Translations under genes and position numbers: made by a program
Notes under the pieces: model-generated
Databases searched by the model: none
What the model saw: only the letters and a program-made list of their open reading frames with translations
Told to the model about the DNA's origin: nothing
Assembly (NCBI GenBank): GCA_012295275.1
Contig: CM022675.1
Coordinates: 4,402,001 to 4,466,000, forward strand
Direction of reading: 5' to 3'
From: Chrysomallon squamiferum
Lineage: Eukaryota > Animalia > Mollusca
Length of the DNA stretch: 64,000 nt
Shown here: in pieces, positions 1 through 42,300 of the stretch
How the letters are laid out: each line of letters begins with the position of its first letter
Numbering within the stretch: the stretch's first letter is position 1

Positions 1-453
1 CAACAATAATAACGACGACAACAAACAACAATAATGAGTGTGATGAAAATTAAATAACTGCATAGCGTAACAACAATACGCAATATGATTAAACATAACA
101 GCATAAACTGGCACGTTATGACATATATTAAAAATAAACTATTTACTATAAATGCAAAATTAGCTCACATATTTTGACGTAGCTAAGTATAAATAACAGC
201 AATATTATATATATAATAACGTAACATAACAATAATAATAACGAAACAATATTACATATTACAAAATTGTATATCATCACATAACTAAGTAATTATTTAT
301 AAGTTTAGAAAACATAACATTATGAACATGTGTAAATGTTTACAATATAAACAAAATACATTTGTATAAATGTATATATAATATCGTAACATAAAATTTC
401 ATCAACATAAAGCAACATAAATAATTAAGATAAATATTAATAAATGAACACAG

Positions 454-506
454 GTCCGTGGTCTGACAGAAAACAAGAAGAAATGTTAGAAGAATATTTT
501 ACACTG
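454..506 (+). pseudogene. Truncated exon-2 fragment of a CTLD/WSC receptor paralog (preceded by intron-1 sequence at 1-453)
   Basis: acacag|GTCCGTGGTCTGACAGAAAACAAGAAGAAATGTTAGAAGAATATTTTACACTG matches the start of exon 2 at 2738, 13120 and 27110 (PWSDRKQEEMLEEYFTL), then breaks off into spacer-like sequence. Bases 1-453 align with intron 1 of copy B (about 12661-13119). Confidence 0.85.
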
Positions 507-2737
507 AATTCTTTACACTGATCTAAAAACAGCCTCAGTTGAGATTGTTTATTCTGTGATGTTTGCTTTTCTGATTTGAATTTTCCACTTCACCTTGTGC
601 CCCATTTAGATTCATATTACAAAGTTTGTAACTTGTGTAAGTACTGTGATAACACTGTAGCTGATTATAATCGTCATTTTTGGTCCAGGTATTTTATTTT
701 TTTTTTCTCATATACTCTCAGCTATTGAATTTTATTTCTACTGCGATATAGGAATTAATTAATTCAAATTTAGTTTACTTGTCAAAAGACAAACGTACAA
801 AAAGAACTTGTGAAGTGAAGCGAAACTGGTGCGGGGGTGGTAATGTTTGACATTTTAGAAGTTGGTGTTCAACAACCGAGATTTACCACAGCTTTGTTTG
901 TTTGTTTGTTTGTTTGTTTGTTTGTTGTTGTTGTTGTTGTTGTAGTTATTCTTTTCAGAAAATAAATTCAGGTACAAACATTACAAGCTGTACTAACAAC
1001 CTCCATTCAATGAAGTCAGTTTCGGAGAGTGGCGAGCTCTCTAAATGAGAGAAACTTAACTGTGAAACTTAGTTTAATGTAATGTACTAATTTTATTTTA
1101 ACTGTTTTTGTGAGACAGTTGTACTTGATGTTCACCATATGGGAATCATCGTTTTTGACGCGAAAACAGTCTGAAGTTTCAGTTATTTGATTATTTCAAA
1201 CAAACAGCAAACTTTAACTAACAGAGTGACTTTCATCTCAAACCAGTATTATCAGTCACATATTTATCACAGATCATATAAATGTAATTGTAAATTCAAA
1301 AATAATAAAAGAAAAATAATAACAAAATAAAATAATAATAATGATGATGATAGTAACAACAATAACGATGTATTAATGATATTTAAGGTAAAGAAATAAC
1401 AAGACAATAAGAGATGGAGAGGTAACGAGGACGTGGGTGACAACGTCATTATGTAATTGTCTGGTTGTGTTTTCTACGCAATTTGCTGATGTGCGCTATC
1501 TTAAGACTGCGCTGCTCATTCTTAAGATCGGTAGAACACGCGGAATTCGAGGAAATTAAACTAACATACAAAATGTGACCTCATGTACACTAACTGAATA
1601 CAAACATGTTTTATGTTTGAAATCAAGGAGATTTACTGATAATATAATAGGATACAACTAAATAAATAGATAAAGACAACATAAAAACAAAACAGATATC
1701 TAAAATTAATATTTTATAATATTAGCTTTAGTACTAATGACAAATTTAGTATCTCATATGACACTAGTCTACATGCACTGATGTTTACAGATGGTCCCAT
1801 AGTTCGGTCGAGTACGTTAATGGTACGCGCCAAGTACGATACAGAATTTTAAAAATACATTAACTACATTACAGGTAGAACTTAGACAACTGTAAAGATG
1901 ATCTAAATTCATTATAGCTGTTTGTTTAATTAGTATTAACATTCTCTGTATGACTGAGTGTTATAAAACTGAGATATACTACTTGTGTAATCTCTGTCCC
2001 AGATTTTTATGTTTCAAAATCATTCTGTAAGAAAACAACTGCTTTCAATTATTTATATTGCTCAGCTCTTCCAACATCGCATTTTAGTTGATAAAATGAT
2101 ATTTTTACAATATACACCAATGCTTGAAATTTACAAGCTTAATATTAATTGTTTTAAACAAATGTGACAGTTCAAAGTTTGTTATTTGTTAACAATTTAT
2201 CAGTTTTGCAAAGAACTGAAGTAGACACTGGTCTTTAATCTAATACTGTCTATTCTCCTTTAATCTGTGACAATAAGCTGTGAATACGTCTGTATGTGAA
2301 AATCAACTGTGTTTGTATCTGTTGTGTCTAAATGTGTGTATATAAGCATGTATTAATGTATGTATGTAAAAGAAGTACATAGCGTAACACCAAAAGATAA
2401 AACAGTTGAACTGAGAGTTTCGACATAAGATAACATGTTTTAATATAACAGGTAAACATTGAATAATAGCCTAAACTAGCATGTTTTAACACAATATCTT
2501 TTAAAAATAAACTACTTACTATAAACGCAAAATTACATAACATAACATAATACCTACAGCAACATTATATATAAAATAACATAACGTAACATAACAAAAA
2601 TAATAGTAGCAGTATCACATATTACAATAAGACATAACTTGACTAAAATACACAATAACATAAAATTGTAATATTTATATATTTTTGCAACATAAAGCAC
2701 CATAATAATTAAGATAAATATTAATAAATTAACACAG

Positions 2738-3330
2738 GTCCGTGGTCTGACAGAAAACACGAAGAAATGTTAGAAGAATATTTTACACTGGATAAAAAAC
2801 AAACTTGGTGGGAGGCAGCGTATTCTGGCTGTGAGGAGGCAGGAGGCAGACTCGTTGTTCATCATTCTGGTTTAGACGAAAACAAACTTTTTTCTGTAAT
2901 GGAAGAAGACAAAGATTATTGGGTAGGAGCTTTAGAGACGTATACACCGTGGATGTGGACTGGTAGGTATAGTTTACTGATTTCATTTTGTGTTTATAAA
3001 TCTGAGTTCAGTAACAAAATACAGTTTTAAATTGTTGTCACTTTCCCAGAGACAGATGAACCGTTATTTCAACACAAAGGAGAAACAGATACAACTGAAC
3101 TTACAAGTGATTACACGTTACAAGATAACAGCGCATTCTCTTGTTTCATCAAGTGTAGAGCTTCTTCTCATACTGTGGGTCTACAAGTAAGTTTGTCTGT
3201 CTGTCATTTATTTTGTTTTGTGTTATTTATTTGTTTATTTTTATTTACTTTTGTTTGTATGTTCATTTATTTAAATTATTTCTCATTTTCGAATTTTTTA
3301 AACGAGGACAACAACAACAAAAACAACAAT

Positions 3331-3365
<35 letters not shown>

Positions 3366-3809
3366 ATAATAATAATAATAATAATAACAATAACAATAAC
3401 AATAACCATAACAATATCTACAAGAAGAAATAACACGAAAGTTGTTTTGTTTTCAGGGTAGACGTTGTTTTTGTAAAATTGCTGACAGTGGACTAAGTAA
3501 GAGAGAAGATTGTGTCAGATGTGCAGGAAGCTACTCAGAATTCTGTGGTGGAGAACACTTTATTTCTGTGTACAAGATTGGTAAGAGTCGAAATGAAATT
3601 TTAAATATTTTTTACTTTTTTTTTTTATAAATAACTAATGATATTTTAAGTGTACAGTGTTTTTAAATACAAAGTGTGTTATACAGGGTACCTGTTTAAG
3701 ATTATTTACAAAGAGTAGCCAAAAATATCATGATTTAGCAAAGTGATATGTGATTAATTTTAATATTTATGTATATACGTATCTATGCGTCTGTGTTAGT
3801 GTATCTAAC

Positions 3810-3863
<54 letters not shown>

Positions 3864-5905
3864 AAGTTAGATACATTACACAGGTGTGTATATATATATA
3901 TATATATAAAGTTAGATACATTAACACATTATATATATATAAAATATTAAGAAATATTCCGTTCCTTGGTGATTATAAAATAACTGATTCTCTATGAGAA
4001 GATTTGAACCAGAGTCGTCTGTGTCTCATCATTTATTATGTGTGTGTTGCAGATTTACCAGACTCGGTGAAAGTCATTGCCAACGTTGCTGTCAACAGCA
4101 ACTGTGGCTACGTCAAATACAACAGAAATTGGAAAGTGTTAGAACTGGGATTTCAAAACTGTGAGAATTATGAAAACCGTGTATGTCATAGTAAGTTATT
4201 TTATATAATTTTTCAAAACATTAAAATAATAATAACAATAACAACAACAACAACAATAATAATAATAACAGTATCAGTATTAATAGTAGTAGTTATAACA
4301 ATAGTAATAGTAATAGTAGTAGTAGTAGTAGCTATTGCTGTGGTCGTTATTATTATTAGTAGTAGTATTGTTGCTGTTGTTGTTGCTGCTGTTGTTCATA
4401 AAGTGCTGATTATTTTTATTTATTTAGATAATTACAAAGTGGAGTGGCCAGGGTTAAAATGTACGTCTGAAATATGTATTACAAAATGGCCAAAGAGAAA
4501 GACAACATGGACCATCTCGGATCGTATATGTGATCTGTCCAAAGTAACAAACAGTTCAGTGTCAGACTTGACAACTCTACTGTCACAAAGCAAATACTGG
4601 GTGGGTCTGCAGAGAAAGTCTGAATGGCGATGGGTTACTGGTAATAAAATTATTACATCTTCTTATTATTTATTTATTTATTTGTTTATTTTGTCATTAA
4701 AAATTAAATTATTTCTAAAATATTTGTTGTATTTATGCATATATATCTATGTACGTGCGTTTGTATTTACGTCTGTTTGTATCTATTATGTGTATATATG
4801 TGTATATGTTTGGGTATTTATGTGTGTATGTATGTCTATGCATGTATGTGAGTGTAAGTGTGTGTGTGTGTGTGCGTGTAAGTATATATTCATGCTTTTA
4901 TTGGGTTATTGGTGACTTATAAGAAATATTATATCTCTGATTTTATATCTATCTATCTATCTATCTATCTATAAATTCTGCTCAAATTCTTGGTTAATAA
5001 AAATCTGAAACTGTTATAGACACGATCCTTGGCTAAACGTTTGGAGTTTGATATCTTGTGGAATTCTCTTTCCAGCAACACTAACATTATAAAGACAGGT
5101 CCAGTGGTTGTGGAGATATTGTGATCTAAAGACTTTTGGTCAATTATGTCAAAAAATGTCAAATTTCGAAGATCGGTATATCCAGAAGTACTGGTCGGAT
5201 GAAGACGAAATTCGATGTTTGGCCGTTTGAAACCAGAATCGTTTTATCAAAATGTGAATAGGTCGGGTTACACCCGCTCAGTGAACTGACATGTATCTGT
5301 CTGTATGTCTGTATGTATGTATGTGTGTGTATCTGTATGTATGTATGTGTATGTGTAAGCAGGGGTATGCAGTTGTGTTTCTAATAGTAGAATCTGTGAC
5401 GTCTGATCTGAAGTGACAGCAGTGGTGTGGTAGTAGTTGTTGTGATGATAATAATAATATGATGCTTTAGTTTTGAAATGTTGATGTATACGTCTTTTTA
5501 ATCAGAAAATAATTTGATTTCATACACAGGTGAAGAGTTCTGGGTAGATTCCGATTATTCCAATCACGAAAAACATGAAGCCATTGTATGGACAAAAGAA
5601 TTTCATTTTTATTATGGATATAAAATGAAGTGGTATGTTTCTTCATCAGATGTGAACAACAGTGTGGCTTGTCAAAAGTGTGAGTATCGTGTACACACAA
5701 ACAATAAACAAACAAACAAACAAACAAATAAGTGTTCATTACTCTACATCTCCACTAAATATTTTAATTAACAGTAGTTCTAAACAACCAGTTATTGTTA
5801 TTACTGTTATTATTATTATTGTTACTATTATTATTATTATTATTATTACTATTATTATTATTTTTACTGTTATTATTATTATTATTATTACTATTATTAT
5901 TACTG

Positions 5906-5945
<40 letters not shown>

Positions 5946-6424
5946 TGTTGTTGTTGTTGTTGCTGTTGCCGTTGATGTTGTTTTCATAGTCTTTGTTTTG
6001 TTTTTCTTCATTCTTCATTTCTTCGTAACATGGCTCTCTCTCTTTCCTTTTTTTACTTCTTTCTTTTTTATTCTTGTTGTTTTTTGTTATCTCGACATTT
6101 CTCCTTTTTGTTTTCTGATTTGTTTTACTTTATTGCAGATAAAAACACAAAATCGACAGCAAAGGCATCGTCAACAACAGCAGAATCCTCGACTACTACG
6201 GCAAAGACGAAAAACCCAGATTCGATGTCTTCAGCACCACAGTTTACTACAGAGAACATGAGTCCAGTATCAACTTCTCAGCCTAAGAGAAGGGACATAA
6301 CTTCACCTAAAAGTAGCGCACAGGCTGACAACAGACAAAATATACCAGGTTAGTTTGTTAGTATTTATTAGTTTCTCCGTTATCAAACAGAGGTTACATG
6401 TAAACCACTAATAATGATAATAAA

Positions 6425-6505
<81 letters not shown>

Positions 6506-7585
6506 ATACATTTATATATTTAAAATAAATGTTAATGTCTCTAATCTTTTTTTTCAATTTCTGTGATTTTGTAGCACTTGCTGGTGGTGTTGTTGCTGCT
6601 GTTGTAGTAGTGTTAATTGTCGTAGTTCTCATTTTACTGTGGACTAAACGGTAAGTTTTTTCTTTGTTTGTTTTAGTTTTTTGTTCATTAAATAAAAATA
6701 ATAATAATAATACAATTATTGACAAATGAATAATATTTAGATATTTGTATGTCGATAAGTCTGTATATATGTAGGTATGTTTGTTTTTACATATATGAAG
6801 TATACAATTTTTAAAATATTTAACTTTAATTTTTTCCCAGATCACGTCGATTTTGTTTTAAAACTCAGAAGTTACCAGAATCAAGAATTAATTTTAACAA
6901 AAGAAACAATGAAATCAGCTCTGCTGAAGATTTACAACGTGGTCACACAAATCCGAGTTATGAGGTAACAACGACATCGACGTCGGCAGATTATGAATTT
7001 GAATCAGAAAATCAAGGAAACCACAGTGTTTACTGCAACGTCCCAAGCGGAGTTACAGTCAACATGGAAAACAGAAATAATAACGACTACGACATCGCAG
7101 ATGTTAAAGCAGATGTTAAATCACTTCCCATTAACAGATCTACTGCTGACGACAACGATGGAGACAACGAAACACCGTATATCAACACGGCAACGACTAC
7201 GACATCTACAGTAGACAAACACGTCTCAAGCAGTCATGAAGGAGACTACGACAGCACAGATACAACAAATACAACAACTCATAGATCTAACATCTACAAC
7301 AACCTTGACGGTGACTACGATACCTGTGATAAGAAAAAGAAAACAACTACGTCTGATGTCTACAACCGGCTTGGTGTTGACAATGACAGCGACTACGACA
7401 GCACAAATAGAGAAAAGACAACTGCAACTGTATCCGACGTCTACAACCACCTCGTTGATTCTGAAGACTACGACACCATGGACAGTAGACCTCCAACATC
7501 AACAACAACATCAGACCTGTATAACCATATTGACCAACCTGACAGCGACCTCTACGACATCGCTGATGCTGTTACTTCTGATTAA
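2738..7585 (+). CDS. Receptor copy A: CTLD(WSC insert)-CTLD-S/T stalk-TM-Tyr-rich tail, exons 2-10; exon 1 absent locally
   Basis: Exons 2738-2962, 3050-3186, 3457-3580, 4053-4190, 4428-4640, 5530-5679, 6139-6348, 6575-6650 and 6841-7585 are all GT-AG and phase-compatible. Motifs: WWEAAYSGCEEAGGRL..YWVG..WMW (CTLD N-half), CFC..CAGSYSEFCGGEHFISVY (WSC-like), TM ALAGGVVAAVVVVLIVVVLILLW followed by TKR, and a tail with repeated DYD/YNxL. Confidence 0.85.
4975..5290. mobile_element. Probable interspersed-repeat insertion in receptor intron 6 (also about 29250-29550)
   Basis: Complex, more GC-rich block flanked by simple repeats in copies A and C, absent from the short intron 6 of copy D; family not identified. 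Confidence 0.35.
6426..6501. repeat. (CT)n microsatellite in receptor intron 8 (paralogous tract at about 30746-30845)
   Basis: Direct observation. Confidence 0.95.
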
Positions 7586-8254: not shown

Positions 8255-9013
8255 GCACGAGTGCCTAACTTACGAGTTTTTCGAGTTACTTCGAGTTACA
8301 AGCAGTCGACATCCAATTTTTTGCTTTGAGTGGCGAGCCAAAATCCCAGTTACGAGCGAGTTAAAGATATGCTGCCGCTAATTGGCGCAACGAACAACAA
8401 AACATCCGCCCAGCATCCTGCTGCTGACTCGTTTACTTCACGTGGTTACCTCGACGCGGAAACATCTCTGTTGTGTTGTGTTCGCGTTTTGTGTAATTTT
8501 CACAAATTTCTTTTTCCTGACCATGGATTGTAAGAAAGTGAGTGCAAAGGACAGTGCTGAGAAGAAGAAGTGGATGTTATCTATTGAATTAAAGCATGAA
8601 ATCATAGAAAAACATGATCACGGTCTGCATGTAGTCGACTTGGCTTGGCAGTACGAGCGTAGTACTTTTACGATTTGTACCATACTGAAGCAGAAGGAGT
8701 CGATAAAGGCTGTAACTCCAGCCAAAGGCGTTAAAATAATTTGTCTGATCGCCAAGATAAATGCACTTTACAAAACCAAGTTATTTCTTTTCATTCTCTT
8801 TTATTTTGTTTTTATACAATATTTTCCATTTATAAATACATTTTTGTTATTTAAAAGCACGTTACAAAAATTTAGTGTGTTTTAAGGGGGGGCTGGAACG
8901 GATTAATGGTATTTCAATTAATTTCATTTAGAAAACTTGATTTGATATACGAGCTAATTGAGATACGAGCTAGGTCGCGGAACGAATTAAACTCATAAGT
9001 CAAGGTACCACTG
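8255..9013 (+). mobile_element. Non-autonomous Tigger/pogo-type DNA transposon with a remnant N-terminal HTH
   Basis: Right end ..cataagtcaaggtaccactg|TA; left end degenerate. Internal frame [49 protein letters not shown] resembles the CENP-B/Tigger HTH. Three related copies lie in the window. Confidence 0.8.
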
Positions 9014-12310: not shown

Positions 12311-13617
12311 ATGAATTTAGTAACAGCAGTGATTATATTAACTGTCTACAATCAGGTTACACGTTCAGAAAGACTAAGTAAGTTTATTATTCATTTAAAT
12401 TAATTTATTCATTGTACTTCATTTGAAATATGTATAAGGCTAGGGGAGATAACTTAAAATTTTATATTTTATTTCAGTTTTATTTATTGTTTAATGGGGA
12501 TTTTATTATTGTGATTTCTTGTATATGATGATTATGTTAAAAGAAGACCTTTCTCAAAATAGAGCCTTCTGAATGTTTAATCGATGAAATGTTCATTCAT
12601 AGTTAATAATAACAACATCAACGACAGTAATAATAATAACAGTAACAACATCATCAACAGCAATAATAACGACGACAACAAACAGCAATAATGACAGCGA
12701 TGAAAATTAAATAACAGCATAGCGTAACAACAGTATGTAATAGGATTTAACATAACAACATAAACTAGCACGTTATAACATGTTTTAAAATAAACTATTT
12801 ACTATAAATGCAACATTAGCTAACGTATTTTGACCTAGTTAAATATAAATTACAGCAATATTATATATAAAATAACATAACATAACGTAACATAACAATA
12901 ATAATAACGTAGCTGTATTACATATTACATAACCTGACTAAAACAACAAAGTAATTATTAAGAAATTTATAAAGTATAACAGTATAAATATGTATGTGTA
13001 AATTTGTACAATTATAAACTAAATACGTATGTATAAATGTATATATAATAACGTAACATAAAATTTCATCAACATAATGCAAATAAATAATTAAGATAAA
13101 TATTAATAAATGAACACAGGTCCATGGTCTGACAGAAAACAAGAAGAAATGTTAGAAGAATATTTTACACTGGATAAAAAACAAACTTGGTGGGAGGCAG
13201 CGTATTCTGGCTGTGAGGAGGCAGGAGGCAGACTCGTTGTTCATCATTCTGATTTAGACGAAAACAAACTTTCTTCCGTAATGGAAGAAGACAAAGACTA
13301 CTGGGTAGGAGCTTTGGAGACGTTTACACCTTGGAAATGGACTGGTGAGTATTCTGTTATTGAAAAGAAATAAATGTTTAATGTTTTATTAAAGTTTTAC
13401 TTTATAAATTGTTCATTATCTACGACATCAACAATAACAACAAAATCACTAATTTTGTTGTTTTTATTGTTGTTGTTGTTTTCAGAGACGAATGACAAAT
13501 TATTCCAGTACGTTGGAGATATCGATGTTGGGAGTTTGAGTAGTAAATACTCAATACAAGACAATGATGCTTTTAAATGCTTCCAGCAATGTAAACCGAG
13601 CAATGGAAAATTTGGTT
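12311..13617 (+). CDS. Receptor copy B, exons 1-3 (partial, runs into assembly gap)
   Basis: Exon 1 12311-12377 (MNLVTAVIILTVYNQVTRSERL, signal-peptide-like, donor A|GTAAG), exon 2 13120-13344, exon 3 13486-13617 (ETNDKLFQYVGDIDVGSLSSKYSIQDNDAFKCFQQCKPSNGKFG) cut by Ns a few bases before the expected donor. Confidence 0.85.
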
Positions 13618-16639: not shown

Positions 16640-17282
16640 GATTCTTTTCAATACAAATTTTCCAGAACAAAATAAACAGATCAGCTGCTTTTAGAAACGT
16701 TGTCGTTGTTGTCGGAATCGTCGTGGATGTTATCAAATATTTCGGATTTCCTAGTGGGAATTAGATTGTTAGACGAGGCAGTATGTCTACACAGACTGGG
16801 GAATGGTAAAGCTGACGTAGCAGTATCAAGCGATGTCGTAGTTTCACCGTCAGGTTGGTTAAGATGGCTGGCTATAAGGTTCTGATGTTGTTGTCGATGT
16901 TGCAGGGTTTCTGTCTATGGTACTGTAGTCTTCATAATCATCGAGGTGGCTGTAGGCGTCAGTTAGTTGTCTTTTCTTTGCTTGTGCTGTCGTAGGCGCT
17001 GTCATTGTCGAAACCAAGCTGGCTGTAGACATGAGACGTAGTTGTTACCTTTTCCTTGTTGTAGGTATCATAGTCACCGTTGTCGTCCTCAGCAAGGTTG
17101 TTGTAGATGTTAGATGTACGAGTTGTCGTATTTGTTGTGTCTATGTTGTTGTAGTCTCCGTCATGGCTGCCTGAGAGATGATTGTCCACTTCAGACGTTG
17201 TAGTAGTTGCTGTTTTGATATCCGCTGTGTCATAGTCTCCAGTAGATCTGTTAATGTGAAGTGCTTTAACGTCTGCGATGTC
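16640..17282 (-). pseudogene. Decayed distal cytoplasmic-tail sequence of copy D, downstream of the premature stop
   Basis: Homologous to the copy C tail (GDYN, NIYNNL, HVYSQL, AYDS) but lies after TAA at 17283-17285 and carries frameshifts near 16960 and 16870. Confidence 0.75.
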
Positions 17283-20200
17283 TTAGTCGTTATCATTTCT
17301 GTTTTCCACGTTGACAGTAACTCCGTTTGGGACGTTGTAGTAAACACTGTGGTTTCCTTGTTTTTCTGATTCAGGTTTATGTTCTGCCGACATCGATGTC
17401 GTTGTTACATCAAAACTCGAATTTGTGTGATCACGTTTTAAATGTTCAGCAGAGCTGATTTCATTGTTTCTTTTGTTAAAATTAATTCTTGATTCTGGTA
17501 ACTTCTGAGTTTTAAAACAAAATCGAAGTGTTCTGAAAAATGAAGACATTATTTAAATTTAAACTGTGAAATACTAAATTAGTTTTATTATACGAGTTTC
17601 TGTCGTGACGACTCTGATAATTCAAAGGAAAAACTGTTTTACATGTCAAATTAAACTGACGTTAACTGAGAAGAATAACAATGAAATCTGTAGATTTTTT
17701 TGTTTCATTCATATTTTTATTTCACCATGTTTTATTTTGTTTTAGCATTTCTAACCAATATGATAAAGAAGACATAATTTTTCTTTCTTTTTTCATTCAT
17801 TCTTTCTTTTTTCCTTCTTTATTTTTTTCATATGTCATCCTTTTTTCCCCTATGTTTCTGCTTCATGAATTTCATAATTTTCTTTAATAATTGATTACAA
17901 CAAATGTTCACCGTTTAGTCCAAACTACGACGACAGCAATAACAACCAACACCAGTACAACAGCAGCGACAGCACCACCAACATATGCTGAAAATGATTA
18001 CATAATAACATTGAATTTAATCTAAGAACAATTATCTATGTAAATGTTTATTTATTTATTTATTTATTTAATTAGTTAGTTATTTTTTGTCACTTAGTAT
18101 CGAAATAGTCTTTGTAAATTATTTTTCCATTTTTCACATGAAATTTGCTAAGTCAAAAGAAAAAAGAGATAGTTACAAAGAATACTGATATATATATATA
18201 TATATATTTAATTAAATTTAATAAGATTACCAGAATAAATCTAGTAAATTAACACAAAGCTAGTAAAATAAAGTTAGTAAATTAAAAACAAGTGAAATAA
18301 TTCATGTAAATTAAATAAGCCATCTAGCACAGACAAACAGGTATAGAAAGAAAGAAAAAATTTAAACTATTAAAACAAAATAGTAAAATTAAAACTAACC
18401 TGACTTTTTTGATGGAAGTTTTATGTGAGCGGATTGTTTAGTTGGAATTATCGCCCCTGATCTTGTTGGTTCAGAAGTACTAGAAAATGATGGAAGTTGT
18501 ATGTAAGCGGATTGTTTTGTTGGAATTATCGCCCCTGATCTTGTTGGTTCAGAAGTACTAGAAAATGATGGTTTGGAGAAAAGCATGGAAGTTGACACTT
18601 TTGGCGTAGTAGCTGGGGTTTTTTGGGGGGTCTGGTTCGCAGTTGTTGTCACTGATGTTGACGTTGATATTGGTGCAGTTACATTATCTGTAAATATATA
18701 AAAGATTATCTCGAAAAGCCATTAGATTGTTTTCATAAAAACTTTTTAAAGACATCTTTTAGCCTTATTATTATTATTATTATCATTATTATTATTATTA
18801 TAGACAGATGATGCTGAAATGGAAAAATATGTTAATTATGACATGCATATTACATACCTACATATATACATAACAAGATTTGAAAAAATGCACACACGTA
18901 TTTATGACTGGTAGTTTATACTCACATTTCTGACAAAGAGTCTGAAGTTCTGTGTGTGGAGAGTAATAATAATAATCATTTAATTCATCATCTGTACTCT
19001 GAACAAACCAAACTAAACTCCTAAGAAACTTCCTTTTGTCAGAAAAATGTTTCAAGTACCACAGCTCATTTCCTGAACAATAAGCAAATAAATGAATAGA
19101 ATTAAACAAAGCTTGAATATATATATATATGTAGACAAATACATAAATAGACTAGATAGATAGATATAAATATTTGAGTATGGAAATAAAATAAAATGGA
19201 ATAAAACAAAAACGTAAAATAAAATAAATAAATAAGTCTAAAGATTCTAAAGATACCGTTAATCGACCTCCATTTAACTTCTCTGTGAAGTGCAATCCAG
19301 TATGATCGCTTCTGTCTTTCTGGTTTTGCTAAAAGTATTTTCATAGCTGAGAGTGTATTGTTCGTTAGCTTAGATAAATTGATCCGATAATCCGCATTAT
19401 TCCAGGTGATCTTGTTCTTTAGTGAAATACATATCACAGATGTGCAAAGTGAACTTTCGATCCACCATTGAAGAAGTGATGTTAATGCGTTCATCTCTAA
19501 GAGAGACAGTAAAAAATAAGTAAATAATAAAAAAAAAAAATAAAATAAAGTTTAAAAAAGAAGAAAATAAATAAATAAATAATTAGAAAAATTCAAAAAG
19601 AACAAAAAAATAATAACAAGAAAAGAAATAGAAAAAAAAAAATTAATAAATAAGGAAGAACAAAGCCAACATGTATTGTAAACTGTAACTGATCATTTAT
19701 TTATTTAATTACTTCATTACTTACTACTTACTCCTACTCTTGGTACTACTACTATACTAATACTACTTCTACCTTTACTTTTGATACTTCAACTAATTTT
19801 CCTTTTATTATTATTATTATTATTAATCATTCATTCATTCATTCATTACTTTGATTATAGTCATTGTAACTGAAAATACTGACTGAACTGTTTTAAAATA
19901 AAATGACCTGTGTACACTACGTATGCTCTGTAGCTGTCACAGTTTTGGAAACCAATTGTAAAACTGTCAGAATTGAACTTGACGTAGCCGCAGCGCTTGA
20001 TTCCGTCAGCGCTGTCGTCGATTGTAACTGAAGACGGAAGATCTGTAATGAAGTGATTTATAAAATTATCACTCTTTCGATGCATCTTAAATCATTGACT
20101 GATTCATTCATTCATTTGGTCGTCCGTTCGGCCATTCGTTCATTCATTCATTCATTGGCTCGTACTTTTATATATTCATATACTCGTTTGTTTATTCATT

Positions 20201-20412
20201 CAAACTCACAACCTTAAAACTTCATCTACTGATGATACTATAAATTAACAAAAAATATATATATTAAAGTTATTAGTGTCACCTGTTCTATAAATGGAAA
20301 TTGTGTTTCTTCCTCCGCAGTATTCTTCATATGTCCCTGCACATCGAACTCGTTTTGTAGTTGACTTCACAGGACTTGCTGTGTCAGATATTTTACAGTA
20401 ACACCGCTTTCC
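17283..20412 (-). CDS. Receptor copy D, exons 4-10 (divergent paralog, short cytoplasmic tail; exons 1-3 not found upstream on this strand)
   Basis: Minus-strand exons 20412-20283 (GKRCYC..CAGTYEEYCGGRNTISIY), 20042-19908, 19496-19257, 19072-18926, 18687-18400, 17987-17912 (TM YVGGAVAAVVLVLVVIAVVVVWTKR) and 17532-17283 ending in TAA. Intron phases match copies A and C. Confidence 0.8.
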
Positions 20413-20554: not shown

Positions 20555-20725
20555 AGAACCGGGACGTAGAACAAAAAAAGTCCCGGGACGTAGACATGTC
20601 TAACTGGTTGGGAAAATGCATATAAAAGATCCCTTGCTGGTTTTTATTTGGTAAGAGTAGACCATTCAGCGGGTTTCTTATTATTATCTCCGTGATCCTT
20701 AACCTTAATGTGTGACGCCAATAGA
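20555..20725 (+). mobile_element. Degenerate SINE core/tail fragment
   Basis: gcatataaaagatcccttgctg..ggtaagagtagaccat..gcgggtttc..ccttaacc..gacgcca resembles, from memory, the conserved core of mollusc tRNA-derived (Meta-domain-like) SINEs; followed by (TATT)n. Not database-verified. Confidence 0.5.
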
Positions 20726-20737
20726 TTTATTTAATAT

Positions 20738-20780
<43 letters not shown>

Positions 20781-20785
<5 letters not shown>

Positions 20786-22618
20786 CTAGTACTATAATAC
20801 CCACAACATATTAACTAGCGTTGTAATATCCACAACGTATTAACTAGCGTTGTAATACCCACAACGTATTTACTAGTATTGTAATACCCACAACGTATTT
20901 ACTAGCATTGTAATACCACAACATGTTAACTAGTATTGTAATACCCACAACGTATTTACTAGTATTGTAATACCCACAACATATTTACTAGCGTTGTAAT
21001 ATCCACAACGTATTTACATAGCATTGTAATACCCACAACGTATTTACTAGTATTGTAATATCCACAACGTATTAACTAGCGTTGTAATATCCACAACGTA
21101 TTAACTAGCGTTGTAATATCCACAACGTATTTACATAGCATTGTAATACCCACAACGTATTTACATAGCATTGTAATACCCACAACGTATTTACTAGTAT
21201 TGTAATATCCACAACGTATTAACTAGCGTTGTAATATCCACAACGTATTTACATAGCATTGTAATACCCACAACGTATTTACTAGTACTGTAATACCCAC
21301 AACATATTTACTAGTATTGTAATACCCACAACGTATTTACTAGTATTGTAATACCCACAACGTATTTACTAGTATTGTAATACCACAACGTATTTACTAG
21401 CATTGTAATACCCACAACATATTTACTAGTATTGTAATACCCACAACCTATTTACTAGTATTGTAATACCCACAACGTATTTACTAGTATTGTAATACCC
21501 ACAACGTATTTACTAACAATTGTAATACCCACAACGTATTTACTAGCATTGTAATATCCACAACATATGTATTAGTATTGTAATACCCAAAACGTATTTA
21601 CTAGCATTGTAATACCCACAACGTATTTACTAGTATTGTAATACCACAACGTATTTACTAGCATTGTAATACCCACAACGTATTTACTAGCATTGTAATA
21701 CCCACAACGTATTTACTAGTATTGTAATACCCACAACGTATTTACTAGTATTGTAATACCCACAACGTATTTACTAGTATTGTAATACCCACAACGTATT
21801 TACTAGCATTGTAATACCCACAACGTATTTACTAGCATTGTAATACCCACAACGTATTTACTAGCATTGTAATACCCACAACGTATTTACTAGTATTGTA
21901 ATACCCACAACGTATTTACTAGCATTGTAATACCCACAACGTATTTACTAGTATTGTAATACCCACAACGTATTTACTAGCATTGTAATACCCACAACGT
22001 ATTTACTAGCATTGTAATACCCACAACGTATTTACTAGTATTGTAATACCCACAACGTATTTACTAGTATTGTAATACCCACAACGTATTTACTAGTATT
22101 GTAATACCCACAACGTAAACTAGCATTGTAATACCCACAACGTATTTACTAGTATTGTAATACCCACAACGTATTTACTAGTATTGATATACCACAACGT
22201 ACCCACTACGTAAACTAGCATTGTAATACCCACAACGTATTTACTAGTATTGTAATACCCACAACGTATTTACTAGCATTGTAATACCCACAACGTATTT
22301 ACTAGTATTGTAATACCCACAACGTATTTACTAGTATTGTAATACCCACAACGTATTTACTAGTATTTACTAGTCATTGTAATACCCACAACGTATTTAC
22401 TAGTATTGTAATATCCACAACGTATTTACTAGTATTGTAATACCCACACCGTATTTACTAGTATTGTAACACACACAACGTTTTTACTAGCATTGTAATA
22501 TCCACAACGTATTTACTAGTATTGTAATATCCACAACGTATTTACTTGTATTGTAATATCCACAACGTATTTACTAGTACTGTAATATCCACAACGTATT
22601 TACTAGTATTGTAATACC
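20781..22618. repeat. 29-bp minisatellite, about 63 copies
   Basis: Unit GTATTGTAATACCCACAACGTATTTACTA with recurrent variants (GCATT, GCGTT, ATCCAC); head-to-tail with no spacers. Confidence 0.97.
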
Positions 22619-22629
22619 AGAGCAATATG

Positions 22630-26333: not shown

Positions 26334-32073
<5,740 letters not shown>

Positions 32074-32718: not shown

Positions 32719-33488
32719 CTGTGCTACCTCGATTTACGAGTGTCTAACTTACGAGTTTTTCGAGTTACGACCAGTCGCGCTGCCGACGTTTTTGCTTTCA
32801 GTGGCGAGCCAGAATTCGAGTTACGACCGAGTTTCAGATACACTGCCGTTAGTTGGCGCAACGAACAGCACAACATCCGCCCAGCATCCCGCGTCTGACT
32901 CGTTTACTTCATGTGGTTACCTCACCGCGGAAGCATGTCTGTTCTGTTATCGTCGTGTTTTTGTGTAATTTTCACAATTTTCTGTTTTCTGACTATGGAT
33001 CCTAAGAAAGTGATTGCAAACGACAGTGCTGAAAAGAAAAAGCGAATGATGTCCATTGAATTAAAGTTTGAATTCACAGAAAAACATGAGCAAGGTGTGC
33101 ATGTAGTCGACTTGCATAGGCAGTACGAGCGTAGTACTTCTACGATATGTACCATACAGGAGCTGAAGGAGTCGATAAAGGCTATAAATCCAGCCGAAGG
33201 CGTTAAAATAATTTGTCTGATCTCAAAGATAAATATACTTTATAAAACAAAGTAATTTCTTTACATTCTCTTTTATTTTGTTTTGATACAATACTTTTCA
33301 TTTTTAAATACATTTTTTTTTGTATCGAAAAACACGTTACAAAAATTTGGTGTGTTTTTTTTGCGGAGTGGAACGGATTAATGGTATTTAAATTAATTTC
33401 AGTTGGGAAAATTGATTTGATGTACGAGCAAACTGAGATATGAGCCTGGTCATGGAATGAATTAAATTTGTAATTCAAGCTACCACTG
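32719..33488 (+). mobile_element. Tigger/pogo-type element (chimeric, at the receptor/DNAJB11 junction)
   Basis: TA|ctgtgctacctcgatttacgag ... gtaattcaagctaccactg|TA (imperfect TIRs, TA flanks); remnant [40 protein letters not shown]. Confidence 0.85.
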
Positions 33489-39371: not shown

Positions 39372-42300
39372 TCGCCGGTGATCTGGTATCTCTTCGCAGC
39401 AAATGTCTTCGTGATTTTTGTTCAAGTACTTGGCGGGTATTAACTCAAATTAATTTCGATGAATCGAATTTTTCTTTAAATATCATTTGTTTGGATGTAG
39501 TATATTTTGGGGTTGCTTTTATGTTTGTTACATACATCTTTTCATGTTAACTGAATGCATTCCCTCTTTTGATGTCGTGGTAATCTGTCATTAGTCAGCA
39601 TTTTAACTTAATGGTTTTCATAATTTAACTAAAACATTAACAAAATGTACATTTTTAATGTATGTATTTATTTATTATTTTTTAAACTGAAGAAGATTTT
39701 GCATTTGTTTAATAAATGCTTATAATTATAATATTTGTTGAAATGTATTGAATGCTACATCATCTAGTAAATAATCATAAAACTAGTAGTAGTTATGCTT
39801 TAAATTATAATAATTTTATTATAAATGATAAATTAGGTAAATGATAAAATATTTAGTATCACCAGAAGGAATACCTTAATAGTCACCCCTAGATAAAGGA
39901 AATATGTTGCACAATAAAAGGACCAACAGCATTTTTAATTTTATTATTTACTGCTAATTTGCTATATAATATATGTATTTTATTTTTATTATACAGCACT
40001 AAGAAATAGGTATATAACAAAATCATTTTCACAGTTAACTGTGTACATCACCAGATCTAGTGTTATAGTTAATCATGTTTAAAATTTCTGGAATAAAAAA
40101 ATCTTTTTAATAACTTAGCACACATATTTCTTCATTGATATAGACTTTTTCTTTGTACTGTTATAGAAGTATTTTTAAAAATTCTGATGAAAAATAATTA
40201 CATGTAATCAGTTTGAAAATAAAAAACCTAGTGTCATTTACTTCAAGAAATAGTTCTGTTGTAAGTCAGGTGTATTTGTGTAAAATGTTATCAAAATCCG
40301 ACTCTTGCACTATTATTATAGATCTGCCAAAATCATCTGAATTTTCCCATATGGGTCATAAACAATCCATTATGACTGTCTGCTTCATGATCAAATACTG
40401 CAGTTTGATTGGACGTTTGTTTTATTCTACATCAGTAGATTAAATGTTTACATATTTGTACAAAAATAATTACCTGTAACTTTAGGTAACTTAGAATCTG
40501 AATTATTCTGAAAATTCACTTTTATTCAGTATTTCTGAACAAAGTTTTCTTTCGTTAGAGAATTAATTTTGCTTTGAAAAGTGTATTTATCAGTACTCTG
40601 GCAATCTGAAAAGTACATATGGTTGAGGACAAGAGATGTGAATTCTTGAAGCCAATCAGTGGGCTTGAAATCAGTTTCAGAACTAAATCCTAGTGAAATG
40701 AATCAAATTACGTCAGTTTCTGCTTACTTGTAGCATTTTCAATTTAAAACTTCTTTTAATTTGTTTCTTTTTTTCTTAGCTAATTAATTAGTTATCATTA
40801 TAATACATTGTGAAATAGTATTGAATATGGGAAATAATTTTTTGAAATAAATTTGCAGACGAGATTTCTACAAAATTCTTGGCGTACCCAGATCAGCATC
40901 AACAAATCAGATTAAAAATGCATACAGAAAACTGGCAAGAGAGTTACCTCCAGACAAAAACCAAGATGACCCAGATGCAGAACAACAGTTTCAAGATCTC
41001 GGTGCAGCATATGAGGTATTTCAAACTATCATTATTTCACTGCTTCAAGACAATCCTACATTCTATTTATTTATGTACAAAGTTCTTAAAGTATTGAAAT
41101 ATAATTAATAATTAAAAAAACATTTCTGTAAATCATAATGGTATTTTAAGTAATAATAATAAGAAATTGAAATGTAGGCCAAAAACAAACTAATATTAAA
41201 GTCAAATTCAAATGATTAAAACCTGCGAAATAGCAATGACAAATTACCTCCCTTGAAATTGCTTTGATAAACAAAAATACAAGTACTTTTTTAACATCTG
41301 GAGCTAGAAATATATATATATATAATTCCTTTGCTATTCATGTATCACTTCATGGTAAGTCCATTAAAACACATACTTAGGTTTTTCCACAAACCATTCC
41401 CACTTGGTTAGCAAAAACATGGACCAAAGTTCTTAACATGGACCACAAAGTGTTCTGTGATTTTGCTGTGATATCATCAGCATAATCTCTGCCATCTCAC
41501 TGTTTCCCAGATGACAGAAGAAGGCTTAAAATAAGTATCATCTGGGAAACAGTGAGATGGCAGAAATGAAGCTGTGTGTATTTCCTCACAGATGGGATGA
41601 CACAAAATATTGCACACTTTCAAACAAAAACAAACACTGCACTGGAAAGAGGAAATGTTGCTCTTTATGTGGTACACAATACATGGTGAGCCAGGAAGAG
41701 ATATCAACTGATTCAAACCTTGCATGCAGCTGCTAACGTTTGTATATAAATGTAACTGATTTTTACACATTAGGTTATTATAGAGGGAAAAAAAATAAAA
41801 AATTATATATATATACCTCGACTTACCAGTGCCCCAACTCATGAGTTTTTTGAGTTACGAGCAGTTGCCTGGTCGAGTTTTGGGTTCTGTTTTGCTGTGA
41901 TTGCATTTTGTGCAGCAGTATTTTGCCAAATTTCTTTTTTGTGGTCATGGATCCTAAGAAAGTGATACAGGGTTGAGAAGAAGAAGCGGATGATGTCCAT
42001 TGAATTAAAGCTTGAATTCATAGAAAAACATGAGCAAGGTGTGCATGTAGTAAACTTGGCTAGGCAGTACGAGCGTGCTCCTTCTGTACCGTACTGAAGC
42101 AGAAGGAATCAATAAAGGCTGTAATTCCAGCTAAAGGTGTTAAAATAATTCGATCTCCAAGATAAATACACTTTACAAAATCCAAATTATTTCTTTACAT
42201 TCTTTTATTTTGTTTTTTTTTATACAATATTTGTCATTTATAAATACATTTTTCTTATTCAAAAACATGTTACAAAAAAAAAAAAAATTAATTTCAGTTG

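What the first reader, a model, noticed from the sequence alone, without database searches (positions are those of the whole stretch)
2738..4190. WSC-like domain nested inside a split C-type lectin domain
Seen: exon 2 encodes the N-terminal half of a CTLD (W-x-EA..C..GGRL..YWVG..WxW). Exons 3-4 encode a Cys-rich WSC-like module (CFIKC..VGLQGRRCFC..C..CAG..EFCGG..ISVY). Exon 5 supplies the C-terminal CTLD elements (NCGYV..ELGFQNC..RVC). The exon 3-4 block is bounded by phase-1 introns on both sides. Established: CTLDs tolerate variation in the long loop after WIG..WxW, which carries the sugar/Ca2+ site, and symmetric phase 1-1 modules are typical of exon shuffling. Inference: one glycan-binding module was shuffled into the ligand loop of another, replacing the EPN/QPD-WND site (no such motifs seen). 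Whether this architecture has been described before is unknown to me.
Basis: partly seen in the sequence, partly recalled or inferred. Interest (0 to 1): 0.8.

Follow-up and report, generated by a model that had tools for sequence, protein, structure and literature searches.

The report
WSC module nested inside lectin domain
This likely snail gene encodes a predicted cell-surface receptor in which a WSC module lies between two halves of a C-type lectin-like domain that are predicted to fold back together, which would put a variable binding module where the sugar site normally sits; abalone and vent-snail relatives share the layout, and databases list them only as uncharacterized.

Summary
Exons 2-10 splice into one open 672-residue frame: lectin (CTLD) N-half, WSC module, CTLD C-half, a second uninterrupted CTLD, Ser/Thr stalk, membrane helix and tyrosine-rich tail. 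RNA contigs join exon 2 to 3 in 3 of 3 RNA runs laid, and exon 3 to 4 by loose ends; no skipping was seen. The same order occurs in three Gigantopelta and five Haliotis genes, all unnamed. WSC is well supported (yeast Wsc1 E 1e-4; top four fold matches all WSC), though it lacks one of four disulfides. That exon 5 completes the CTLD is moderately supported. The single-sequence test failed, but the family profile aligns in register (0 of 200 shuffles reach it), and a two-chain model gave weak support. No confident model of the split fold was obtained. The insert likely entered an existing phase-1 intron, which the second CTLD also has. It adds to the loop rather than replacing the sugar site, and glycan binding is unshown. 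Ten literature searches found no description. This scan noted CTLDs split by other modules (pentraxin, trefoil) in other genomes; I did not check those.

The parts
2738..2962 (+). Exon 2: N-half of CTLD1 (helix 1 with its single Cys, helix 2, YWVG strand, W-x-W-T)
   Evidence: Pfam Lectin_C 3-57/107, E 2.4e-4; PDB CTLDs best E 0.0013; Atlas Lectin_C 0.95; RNA
3050..3186 (+). Exon 3: N-part of the WSC module (C-x3-C helix, GLQ strand)
   Evidence: Joint 2961-3049 in 3 of 3 RNA runs, absent from run X5 of unrecorded type; family profile to Wsc1
3457..3580 (+). Exon 4: C-part of the WSC module (C-x-C, C..CGG, ISVY)
   Evidence: Pfam WSC 47-82/82, E 0.14; loose ends after exon 3 read exon 4 in 3 of 3 RNA runs
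4053..4190 (+). Exon 5: predicted C-half of CTLD1 (C-x18-C-x7-C)
   Evidence: Profile alignment in register with the CTLD C-terminal part, 0 of 200 shuffles as high; weak two-chain model; no single-sequence signal
4428..4640 (+). Exon 6: N-half of CTLD2 (YWVGL, W-x-W-V-T), ending in phase 1 at the same site as exon 2
   Evidence: Exons 6+7 score 21.2 bits over profile positions 16-123 of 132; phases
5530..5679 (+). Exon 7: degenerate C-half of CTLD2 (one Cys left in this copy)
   Evidence: homolog P0006 matches Lectin_C 2-106/107 here
6139..6348 (+). Exon 8: Ser/Thr-rich stalk
   Evidence: sequence
6575..6650 (+). Exon 9: transmembrane helix
   Evidence: hydrophobic run followed by KR; same place in homologs
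6841..7585 (+). Exon 10: 247-residue cytoplasmic tail with 14 Tyr, including four D/N-[VIL]-Y-N-x-[LI]..YD repeats
26334..31920 (+). Paralog C, with signal-peptide exon 1; exon 6 is frameshifted
   Evidence: CTLD1/WSC exons 84-98% identical to the finding's gene
12311..13617 (+). Paralog D, exons 1-3, running into an N gap; exon 2 93% but exon 3 42% identical
16800..20412 (-). Paralog B, exons 4-10 on the minus strand (exons 1-3 not found); exon 4 51%, exon 5 38%, tail about 70% identical

Best explanation
The gene encodes a predicted type I membrane receptor, likely of a gastropod, whose first C-type lectin-like domain is interrupted after its W-x-W-T loop by a two-exon WSC module and is predicted to close again with exon 5, so that the WSC would sit at the tip where the calcium/sugar site normally lies and likely serve in binding an outside ligand, signalled through a tyrosine-rich tail. 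Shown: the exon chain, reading frame, splicing of exons 2-3-4, WSC homology, the tandem paralogs and the conserved domain order in Haliotis and Gigantopelta. Inferred, origin: a phase 1-1 WSC cassette landed in an intron that already split the CTLD at this point (CTLD2 keeps that intron without an insert), before the Haliotis and Gigantopelta lines parted. Inferred, fold: the lone exon-2 Cys pairs with the last exon-5 Cys, the other two exon-5 Cys pair with each other, and six WSC Cys form three bonds. Inferred, function: the CTLDs lack the Ca2+ motifs and act as scaffold; paralogs keep exon 2, helix and tail but differ strongly in WSC and CTLD C-half, as expected of a variable non-self or microbe-recognition receptor; ligand clustering would let kinases phosphorylate the four Y-N-x-L/I sites and recruit SH2 proteins.
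For: Open 672-aa frame with canonical splice sites. RNA joints e2-e3 and e3-e4 in 3 of 3 RNA runs. Same order in P0001, P0006, P0016/P0043 (Gigantopelta) and P0046, P0048, P0050, P0051, P0052 (Haliotis). Family profile against PDB: CTLDs match positions about 24-91, mostly ending at W-x-W, and yeast Wsc1 matches 102-177 at E 1e-4. Fold search: 7PZ2 Z 7.0 (rmsd 3.8, 84 aligned), 9N3U Z 6.3 (3.2, 78), Kremen 5FWS Z 6.2 (2.9, 72), then PAN/apple folds. C-half profile scores 15.6 against shuffles 8.2 +/- 1.6, 0 of 200 as high; its HMM puts 8 of 196 generic CTLDs above the best reversed decoy, all 8 in their C-terminal part (CTLD2 C-half 18 of 196; WSC 0 of 196). N+C aligns over 105 columns against 61 for N alone. 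The last Cys spacing is x7 in 7 of 8 homologs (one ending in Gly) and in 82 of 91 scorable generic CTLDs. ESMFold2 on the two halves of P0001: 0.35 against best control 0.01, partner pLDDT at least 54, runs agree in at least 78% of contacts; the mark was reached by 51 of 78 solved and 2 of 108 mismatched pairs, a pass under 0.60 is weak, and halves of a known fold may pass by likeness to solved CTLDs. Paralog mosaicism.
Against: The single-sequence exon 2+5 join gains nothing over shuffles. HHalign probability for the C-half alone is only 5%, and the N+C score (68.25) barely exceeds the best of 60 shuffles (68.12). Neither AlphaFold model was confident (mean pLDDT 42.5 and 48.3). WSC Z-scores are under 8, which the tool flags as common. 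The canonical CTLD W-N-D strand is absent from exon 5. No ligand, tissue or induction data; an immune role rests on analogy. The tail has no canonical two-tyrosine ITAM: the YxxL/I sites are 22-27 residues apart.
Confidence: 0.55

Rival explanations
1. The nested architecture is right, but the receptor binds a host protein (adhesion, development or shell-matrix role, as Kremen's WSC binds Dickkopf) rather than microbes.
For: The Kremen WSC is protein-binding, and single WSC domains lack an obvious glycan pocket (PMC9024836 passages). Both CTLDs lack Ca2+ motifs.
Against: Tandem duplication, one frameshifted copy and 38-51% identity in the WSC/C-half exons beside 93% in exon 2 fit diversifying recognition better than a fixed host partner.
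Confidence: 0.27
2. There is no true nesting. Exon 2 is a leftover half-CTLD and exon 5 is a separate small disulfide module or linker, so the protein is a linear string of modules.
For: Exon 5 has no single-sequence CTLD signal. Profile probability is 5%.
Against: In-register profile match above all 200 shuffles, and HMM hits confined to CTLD C-termini. The lone exon-2 Cys is kept across the family and needs a partner. Exon 2's core Trp residues are conserved from Haliotis to this gene.
Confidence: 0.12
3. The halves reassemble out of register: exon 2 pairs with the CTLD2 C-half or with a neighbouring molecule (domain swap), forming dimers or a doubly nested unit.
For: Exon 2+7 scores 40.2 bits over profile positions 9-123, slightly above exon 2+5 (37.9), though within shuffle noise.
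Against: Exons 6+7 already form a contiguous CTLD. Gigantopelta isoform X2 (P0016) skips the exon-7 equivalent and keeps exons 2-5 intact.
Confidence: 0.06

Closest known systems
Gigantopelta aegis XP_041372159, XP_041371958, XP_041372371/373; Haliotis XP_046327813, XP_048259795/796, XP_071079563, XP_067681380, XP_046578255 (all 'uncharacterized protein')
   Same: Same domain order, Cys pattern, membrane helix and Tyr-rich tail (P0001 is a short 275-aa model without the later parts); closest is 51% identical over exon 2.
   Different: They are the same family, not a described system; Pfam sees only half a Lectin_C and a sub-threshold WSC. The window copy has an extra Cys in exon 4 and has lost two Cys of CTLD2.
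Canonical CTLD receptors (DC-SIGN/CD209, CLEC4 group, CD69, DEC-205/Ly75)
   Same: N-half sequence through W-x-W, predicted C1-C4 and C2-C3 disulfides, and YxxL-type tail motifs as in hemITAM receptors (PMC9630629 passages).
   Different: An 84-106-residue WSC insert in the long loop; no EPN/QPD/WND; the tail carries four spaced YNxL/I plus YD motifs.
WSC domains: yeast Wsc1 (7PZ2), human Kremen1 (5FWS), fungal glyoxal oxidase (9N3U); PAN/apple fold
   Same: Sequence and fold match; two helix-to-strand disulfides and the C..CG(G) loop bond are kept. Wsc1 also has a Ser/Thr stalk (recalled), a membrane helix and a tail.
   Different: Those WSC domains stand in series with other domains (recalled), not inside one. 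The first WSC-specific disulfide (Wsc1 C27-C86) is missing family-wide.
Polycystin-1 (WSC and CTLD in one ectodomain; recalled, not tested here)
   Same: Both domains occur in one membrane protein.
   Different: There they are separate, intact domains; no homology to this family was sought or seen.

Membership tests
C-type lectin-like domain (CTLD1, split) | Helix-1 W..A...C and WIGL-type strand followed by W-x-W | tested here: met
C-type lectin-like domain (CTLD1, split) | Four cysteines C1-C4 in canonical positions | tested here: met
   In-register profile alignment and C-x18-C-x7-C spacing; sequence level only; 1 of 8 homologs has Gly at C4
C-type lectin-like domain (CTLD1, split) | Double-loop CTLD fold formed by exons 2 and 5 | tested here: inconclusive
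   Weak two-chain pass, 0.35 against 0.01; AlphaFold models low-confidence, also for the uninterrupted CTLD2
Ca2+-dependent C-type lectin (CRD) | EPN/QPD and WND Ca2+/sugar motifs | tested here: not met
   None at these sites in the window gene or 8 homologs; WSD/WND hits lie before the domain
WSC domain (PF01822) | PAN/apple-type fold with the WSC L5 loop | tested here: met
   Top four of 48,161 chains are WSC proteins, Z 5.9-7.0 (Haliotis homolog model, most 10-residue blocks of the core at pLDDT 60-72); Foldseek 7PZ2 E 0.006
WSC domain (PF01822) | Eight conserved Cys, four disulfides | tested here: not met
   Six conserved; C1 absent in all aligned members, C6 absent in 8 homologs and paralog B. 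A reduced, WSC-like variant
WSC domain (PF01822) | Pfam gathering score 27.8 bits | tested here: not met
   Best 19.4 bits (P0006); exon 4 alone 12.8
WSC domain (PF01822) | CGG motif | tested here: met
   CGG in the window paralogs, P0001 and P0006; CGS/CGN/CGD in the others
ITAM/hemITAM receptors | YxxL/I pair 6-8 residues apart (ITAM; spacing recalled) or single YxxL recruiting Syk | tested here: inconclusive
   Four single YNxL/I at tail positions 152, 174, 201, 227; no canonical pair; kinase recruitment not testable
Glycan-binding lectin | Measured carbohydrate binding | not testable with these tools
   needs a glycan array

The most novel reading that the evidence does not exclude
An undescribed family of gastropod variable receptors uses a non-calcium CTLD as a display scaffold. 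A WSC cassette is plugged into the long loop through the old post-WIGL intron, and paralogs reshuffle near-identical scaffold exons with highly divergent WSC cassettes to change ligand specificity for microbes or symbionts while keeping one tyrosine signalling tail. With the pentraxin and trefoil inserts noted elsewhere in this scan (unchecked), that intron would be a general plug-in slot of the CTLD fold.
Probability: 0.3. Interest if true: 0.72.

Novelty: new variant of a known kind. Interest (0 to 1): 0.5.

Why it matters
CTLDs are among the most common recognition domains of animals. The review passage read here describes long-loop variation as present or absent (PMC9630629), not as carrying a whole domain. 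A domain nested in that loop is missed by annotation: Pfam sees half a lectin and a sub-threshold WSC, so these receptors are filed as uncharacterized and could drop out of immune-gene counts in abalone and vent snails. If paralogs swap the WSC cassette to change specificity, this gives a testable route to receptor diversity in a farmed animal (abalone) and in symbiotic snails. Domain insertion itself is a known principle, and the function is still unshown.

Tried and rejected
No whole genome was held. Word-index search with exon 2 found nothing (6 candidates, none scored). Exon 4 alignment against PDB gave antibody chance hits with Wsc1 at E 0.11. The single-sequence exon 2+5 test failed. AlphaFold model 1 (P0006 ectodomain, pLDDT 42.5) gave no meaningful match by Foldseek or VIA (best Z 3.7). 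It also failed on the uninterrupted CTLD2, so it says nothing on nesting. Model 2 (P0051 part, pLDDT 48.3) folded only the WSC, and no CTLD was among the 50 rows listed. Atlas search with P0006 19-232 gave only leads under 0.9 (PAN_3, Lectin_C, Lectin_C+PAN clusters) and structure rows under the naming bar, five of ten with WSC as the aligned part. A locus search could not be seeded from the alignment. No bivalve, cephalopod or other gastropod member appeared among named hits, but those searches are word- and length-limited, so the range is not settled. Contig depth was not used as copy number. Rejected: prokaryotic or artefactual origin (spliced RNA, homologs); recent lineage-specific shuffle (shared with Haliotis); pseudogene status of this copy (open frame). 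Literature, ten searches: WSC domain+C-type lectin+mollusc gave 1 paper; WSC domain+CTLD 0 (26); C-type lectin/domain insertion/long loop/invertebrate 24 with 3 of 4 terms, 20 listed, none on nesting by title or abstract start (46); WSC domain+lectin+gastropod 1 (57); interrupted/inserted-domain terms 0 (61); WSC/PAN/Kremen 4 (68); Gigantopelta terms 479, 15 listed (77); lectin+PAN+WSC+architecture 0 (80); mollusc ITAM receptor 2 (82); nested domain/exon shuffling 1, unrelated (85). The two mollusc WSC papers only list domain names (passages). Supplements were not read, and subscription journals are not in the library.

Full report
Observation. The window is AT-rich (24-35% GC) eukaryotic DNA with one 200-base gap. 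Nine exons from 2738 to 7585 have AG/GT ends and splice into one open frame of 672 residues. Exon 1, a 22-codon signal-peptide-like exon, is seen in two paralogs and by paralogy should lie about 300 bases before the window start (inferred from the 1-506 / 12658-13172 match). Phases are 1 at the starts of exons 2, 3 and 5-9, 0 inside the WSC block and 2 before the tail. The exon 3-4 block is therefore a 1-1 cassette, but phase 1 is the rule in this gene.

Expression. Five public runs hold part of the gene, four on record as RNA from one study. I laid three of the four RNA runs and the run of unrecorded type on bases 1-3200. The exon 2-3 joint (GT..AG, 87 bases) appears in 3 of 3 RNA runs and not in X5. 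Loose ends after exon 3 read the start of exon 4 in 3 of 3. One loose end before exon 2 reads the paralogous exon 1. The only other continuation after exon 2 is a D-type exon 3 (compare), not exon 5.

Relatives. A full HMMER scan with exon 2 gave 42 hits at E up to 0.001. Eight share family-specific features. Three are named Gigantopelta aegis genes; five are unnamed fragments, and P0020 closely matches the Haliotis protein P0046 over this exon. Two profile searches added P0046, P0050, P0051 and P0052 from Haliotis (one unrelated fish multi-CTLD, P0047, also scored), and a cluster look-up added H. cracherodii. All named members are 'uncharacterized'. All eight spliced proteins aligned show CTLD N-half, WSC and C-x17/18-C-x7/8-C segment in that order (one has a 37-residue spacer, one a terminal Gly), and the seven full-length ones go on to a second CTLD, stalk, membrane helix and Tyr-rich tail. 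The five fragment proteins diverge right after W-x-W-T, as expected if the same intron lies there. The window's organism is thus likely a gastropod near these groups (inference from homology).

The WSC module. A family profile matches yeast Wsc1 (7PZ2) at positions 102-177, E 1e-4, as the top PDB hit. CTLD structures match positions about 24-91 and mostly stop at or just after W-x-W. In an AlphaFold model of the Haliotis member P0051 (mean pLDDT 48.3, most WSC core blocks 60-72), the four best of 48,161 chains are WSC proteins: 7PZ2 Z 7.0 (rmsd 3.8, 84 aligned), 9N3U 6.3, Kremen 6.2 and 5.9, followed by PAN/apple folds. Z under 8 is modest, but the agreement of family is clear. Wsc1 has four disulfides, two shared with PAN domains and two WSC-specific (PMC9024836, passages). 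This family keeps six Cys and lacks the C1-C6 pair; copies A and C have one extra Cys near the C6 position. It is a reduced WSC-like domain, below Pfam's cut-off (best 19.4 of 27.8 bits).

Does exon 5 complete the CTLD? Against: with a profile built from 196 CTLD domains cut from 36 non-family proteins fetched here, exon 2+5 scores 37.9 bits, exon 2 alone 39.0 and shuffled controls 39.7 +/- 1.9, with 174 of 200 as high. For: the eight-sequence family profile of this segment aligns to the CTLD C-terminal 30 columns with all three Cys in register, score 15.6 (probability 5%) against 8.2 +/- 1.6 for 200 shuffles, none as high; five WSC slices and the reversed alignment score 9.0-11.6. Its HMM lifts 8 of 196 CTLDs above the best reversed decoy, all in their C-terminal part; the C-half of CTLD2 does so for 18 and the WSC for 0. 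N+C aligns over 105 columns against 61 for N alone, though its score only just exceeds the best of 60 shuffles. Cys accounting fits the C1-C4 and C2-C3 bonds described in PMC9630629 (passages): exon 2 has one Cys and exon 5 three. ESMFold2 on the two halves of P0001 scored 0.35 against a best control of 0.01, with partner pLDDT at least 54 and at least 78% contact agreement. The tool calls this weak (mark reached by 51 of 78 solved and 2 of 108 mismatched pairs; under 0.60 by 5 of 78 solved and all 4 mismatches that passed), and it may reflect likeness to solved CTLDs. AlphaFold gave no confident CTLD, even for the uninterrupted CTLD2, so it is uninformative. I put nesting at about 0.8.

How it arose (inferred). 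CTLD2 is split by a phase-1 intron right after W-x-W-V-T (exon 6|7), the same point at which exon 2 ends. An intron downstream of the WIGL motif is reported for fish CTLD genes (PMC514892, passage). The simplest history is that a 1-1 WSC cassette entered this existing intron and needed no new exon break. About 16 residues before the first exon-5 Cys remain, so the insert adds to the loop. No EPN/QPD/WND motif is at its site in either CTLD of any of nine sequences, so loss of the Ca2+ site is family-wide and not caused by the insert.

How it likely works (inferred). The tail has 14 Tyr, with four D/N-[VIL]-Y-N-x-[LI] repeats each followed by a YD motif, but no paired ITAM. Six homolog tails have 18-24 Tyr and 5-8 Yxx[LIV]. 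The window has three further copies or part-copies: C (84-98% identical in exons 2-5, exon 6 frameshifted), D (exon 2 93%, exon 3 42%) and B (exon 4 51%, exon 5 38%, tail about 70%). One RNA contig carries an exon 2 with 14 differences joined to an exon 3 with none. The three Gigantopelta genes share one contig length, as do the two H. rufescens genes, which suggests clusters there too. Constant scaffold and tail with variable WSC and C-half suggest a recognition receptor with changing specificity. The Gigantopelta hologenome paper reports many pattern-recognition receptors but does not mention WSC in its main text (PMC7895826, passages). No ligand is known, and a host-protein ligand remains a serious rival.

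Novelty. Ten full-text searches found no description of a WSC inside a CTLD. The two mollusc papers naming both only list domains (passages), and the library lacks most subscription journals. The scan's own notes hold nothing on this locus or sequence but two unchecked notes on CTLDs split by pentraxin or trefoil modules in other genomes. Verdict: a real, expressed, conserved but apparently undescribed architecture; a new variant of known domains and of the known principle of domain insertion. Interest 0.5.

Noticed in passing
window 33390-64000: Near-identical (about 98%) tandem repeats of 6-9 kb hold a spliced DnaJ gene in up to four copies (Pfam DnaJ E 6e-20, DnaJ_C E 2e-9). It looks like DNAJB11/ERdj3 (recalled), and the J-domain at 40851 reads PPD where HPD is usual. 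Recent amplification or uncollapsed assembly.
   Followed up: partly
window 12311-13617 (+) and 16800-20412 (-): Paralog D has only exons 1-3 before the N gap and paralog B only exons 4-10 on the opposite strand; they may be one gene broken by an inversion or a mis-assembly in intron 3.
   Followed up: partly
window 454-509 and about 410-2703: Intron 1 holds a duplicated acceptor with the first 56 bases of exon 2, followed by about 2.3 kb of extra DNA; one contig of run X1 lacks this segment (joint 409-2704), suggesting an insertion polymorphism or a paralog without it.
   Followed up: no
window 28778-28990: Exon 6 of paralog C is frameshifted (three reading frames in tblastn), so copy C may be a pseudogene or give a truncated product ending after the nested domain.
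   Followed up: partly
window 20674-22619: Tandem array of a 29-base unit, about 60 copies, directly upstream of paralog B's exon 4.
   Followed up: no
window 8382-8885 and 32899-33252: Related short frames downstream of copies A and C that resemble the DNA-binding start of a pogo/Tigger-type transposase (recalled; no Pfam hit).
   Followed up: partly
P0016 versus P0043 (Gigantopelta isoforms X2, X1): The annotated isoform X2 skips the exon for the C-half of the second CTLD, leaving a half-domain in a full-length receptor model.
   Followed up: no
Atlas search: A mostly molluscan cluster of 69 proteins carries Lectin_C (96%) and PAN_1 (51%) in about 236 residues; since WSC has the PAN fold, these may be a parallel or ancestral nested form. 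Score 0.81, a lead only.
   Followed up: no
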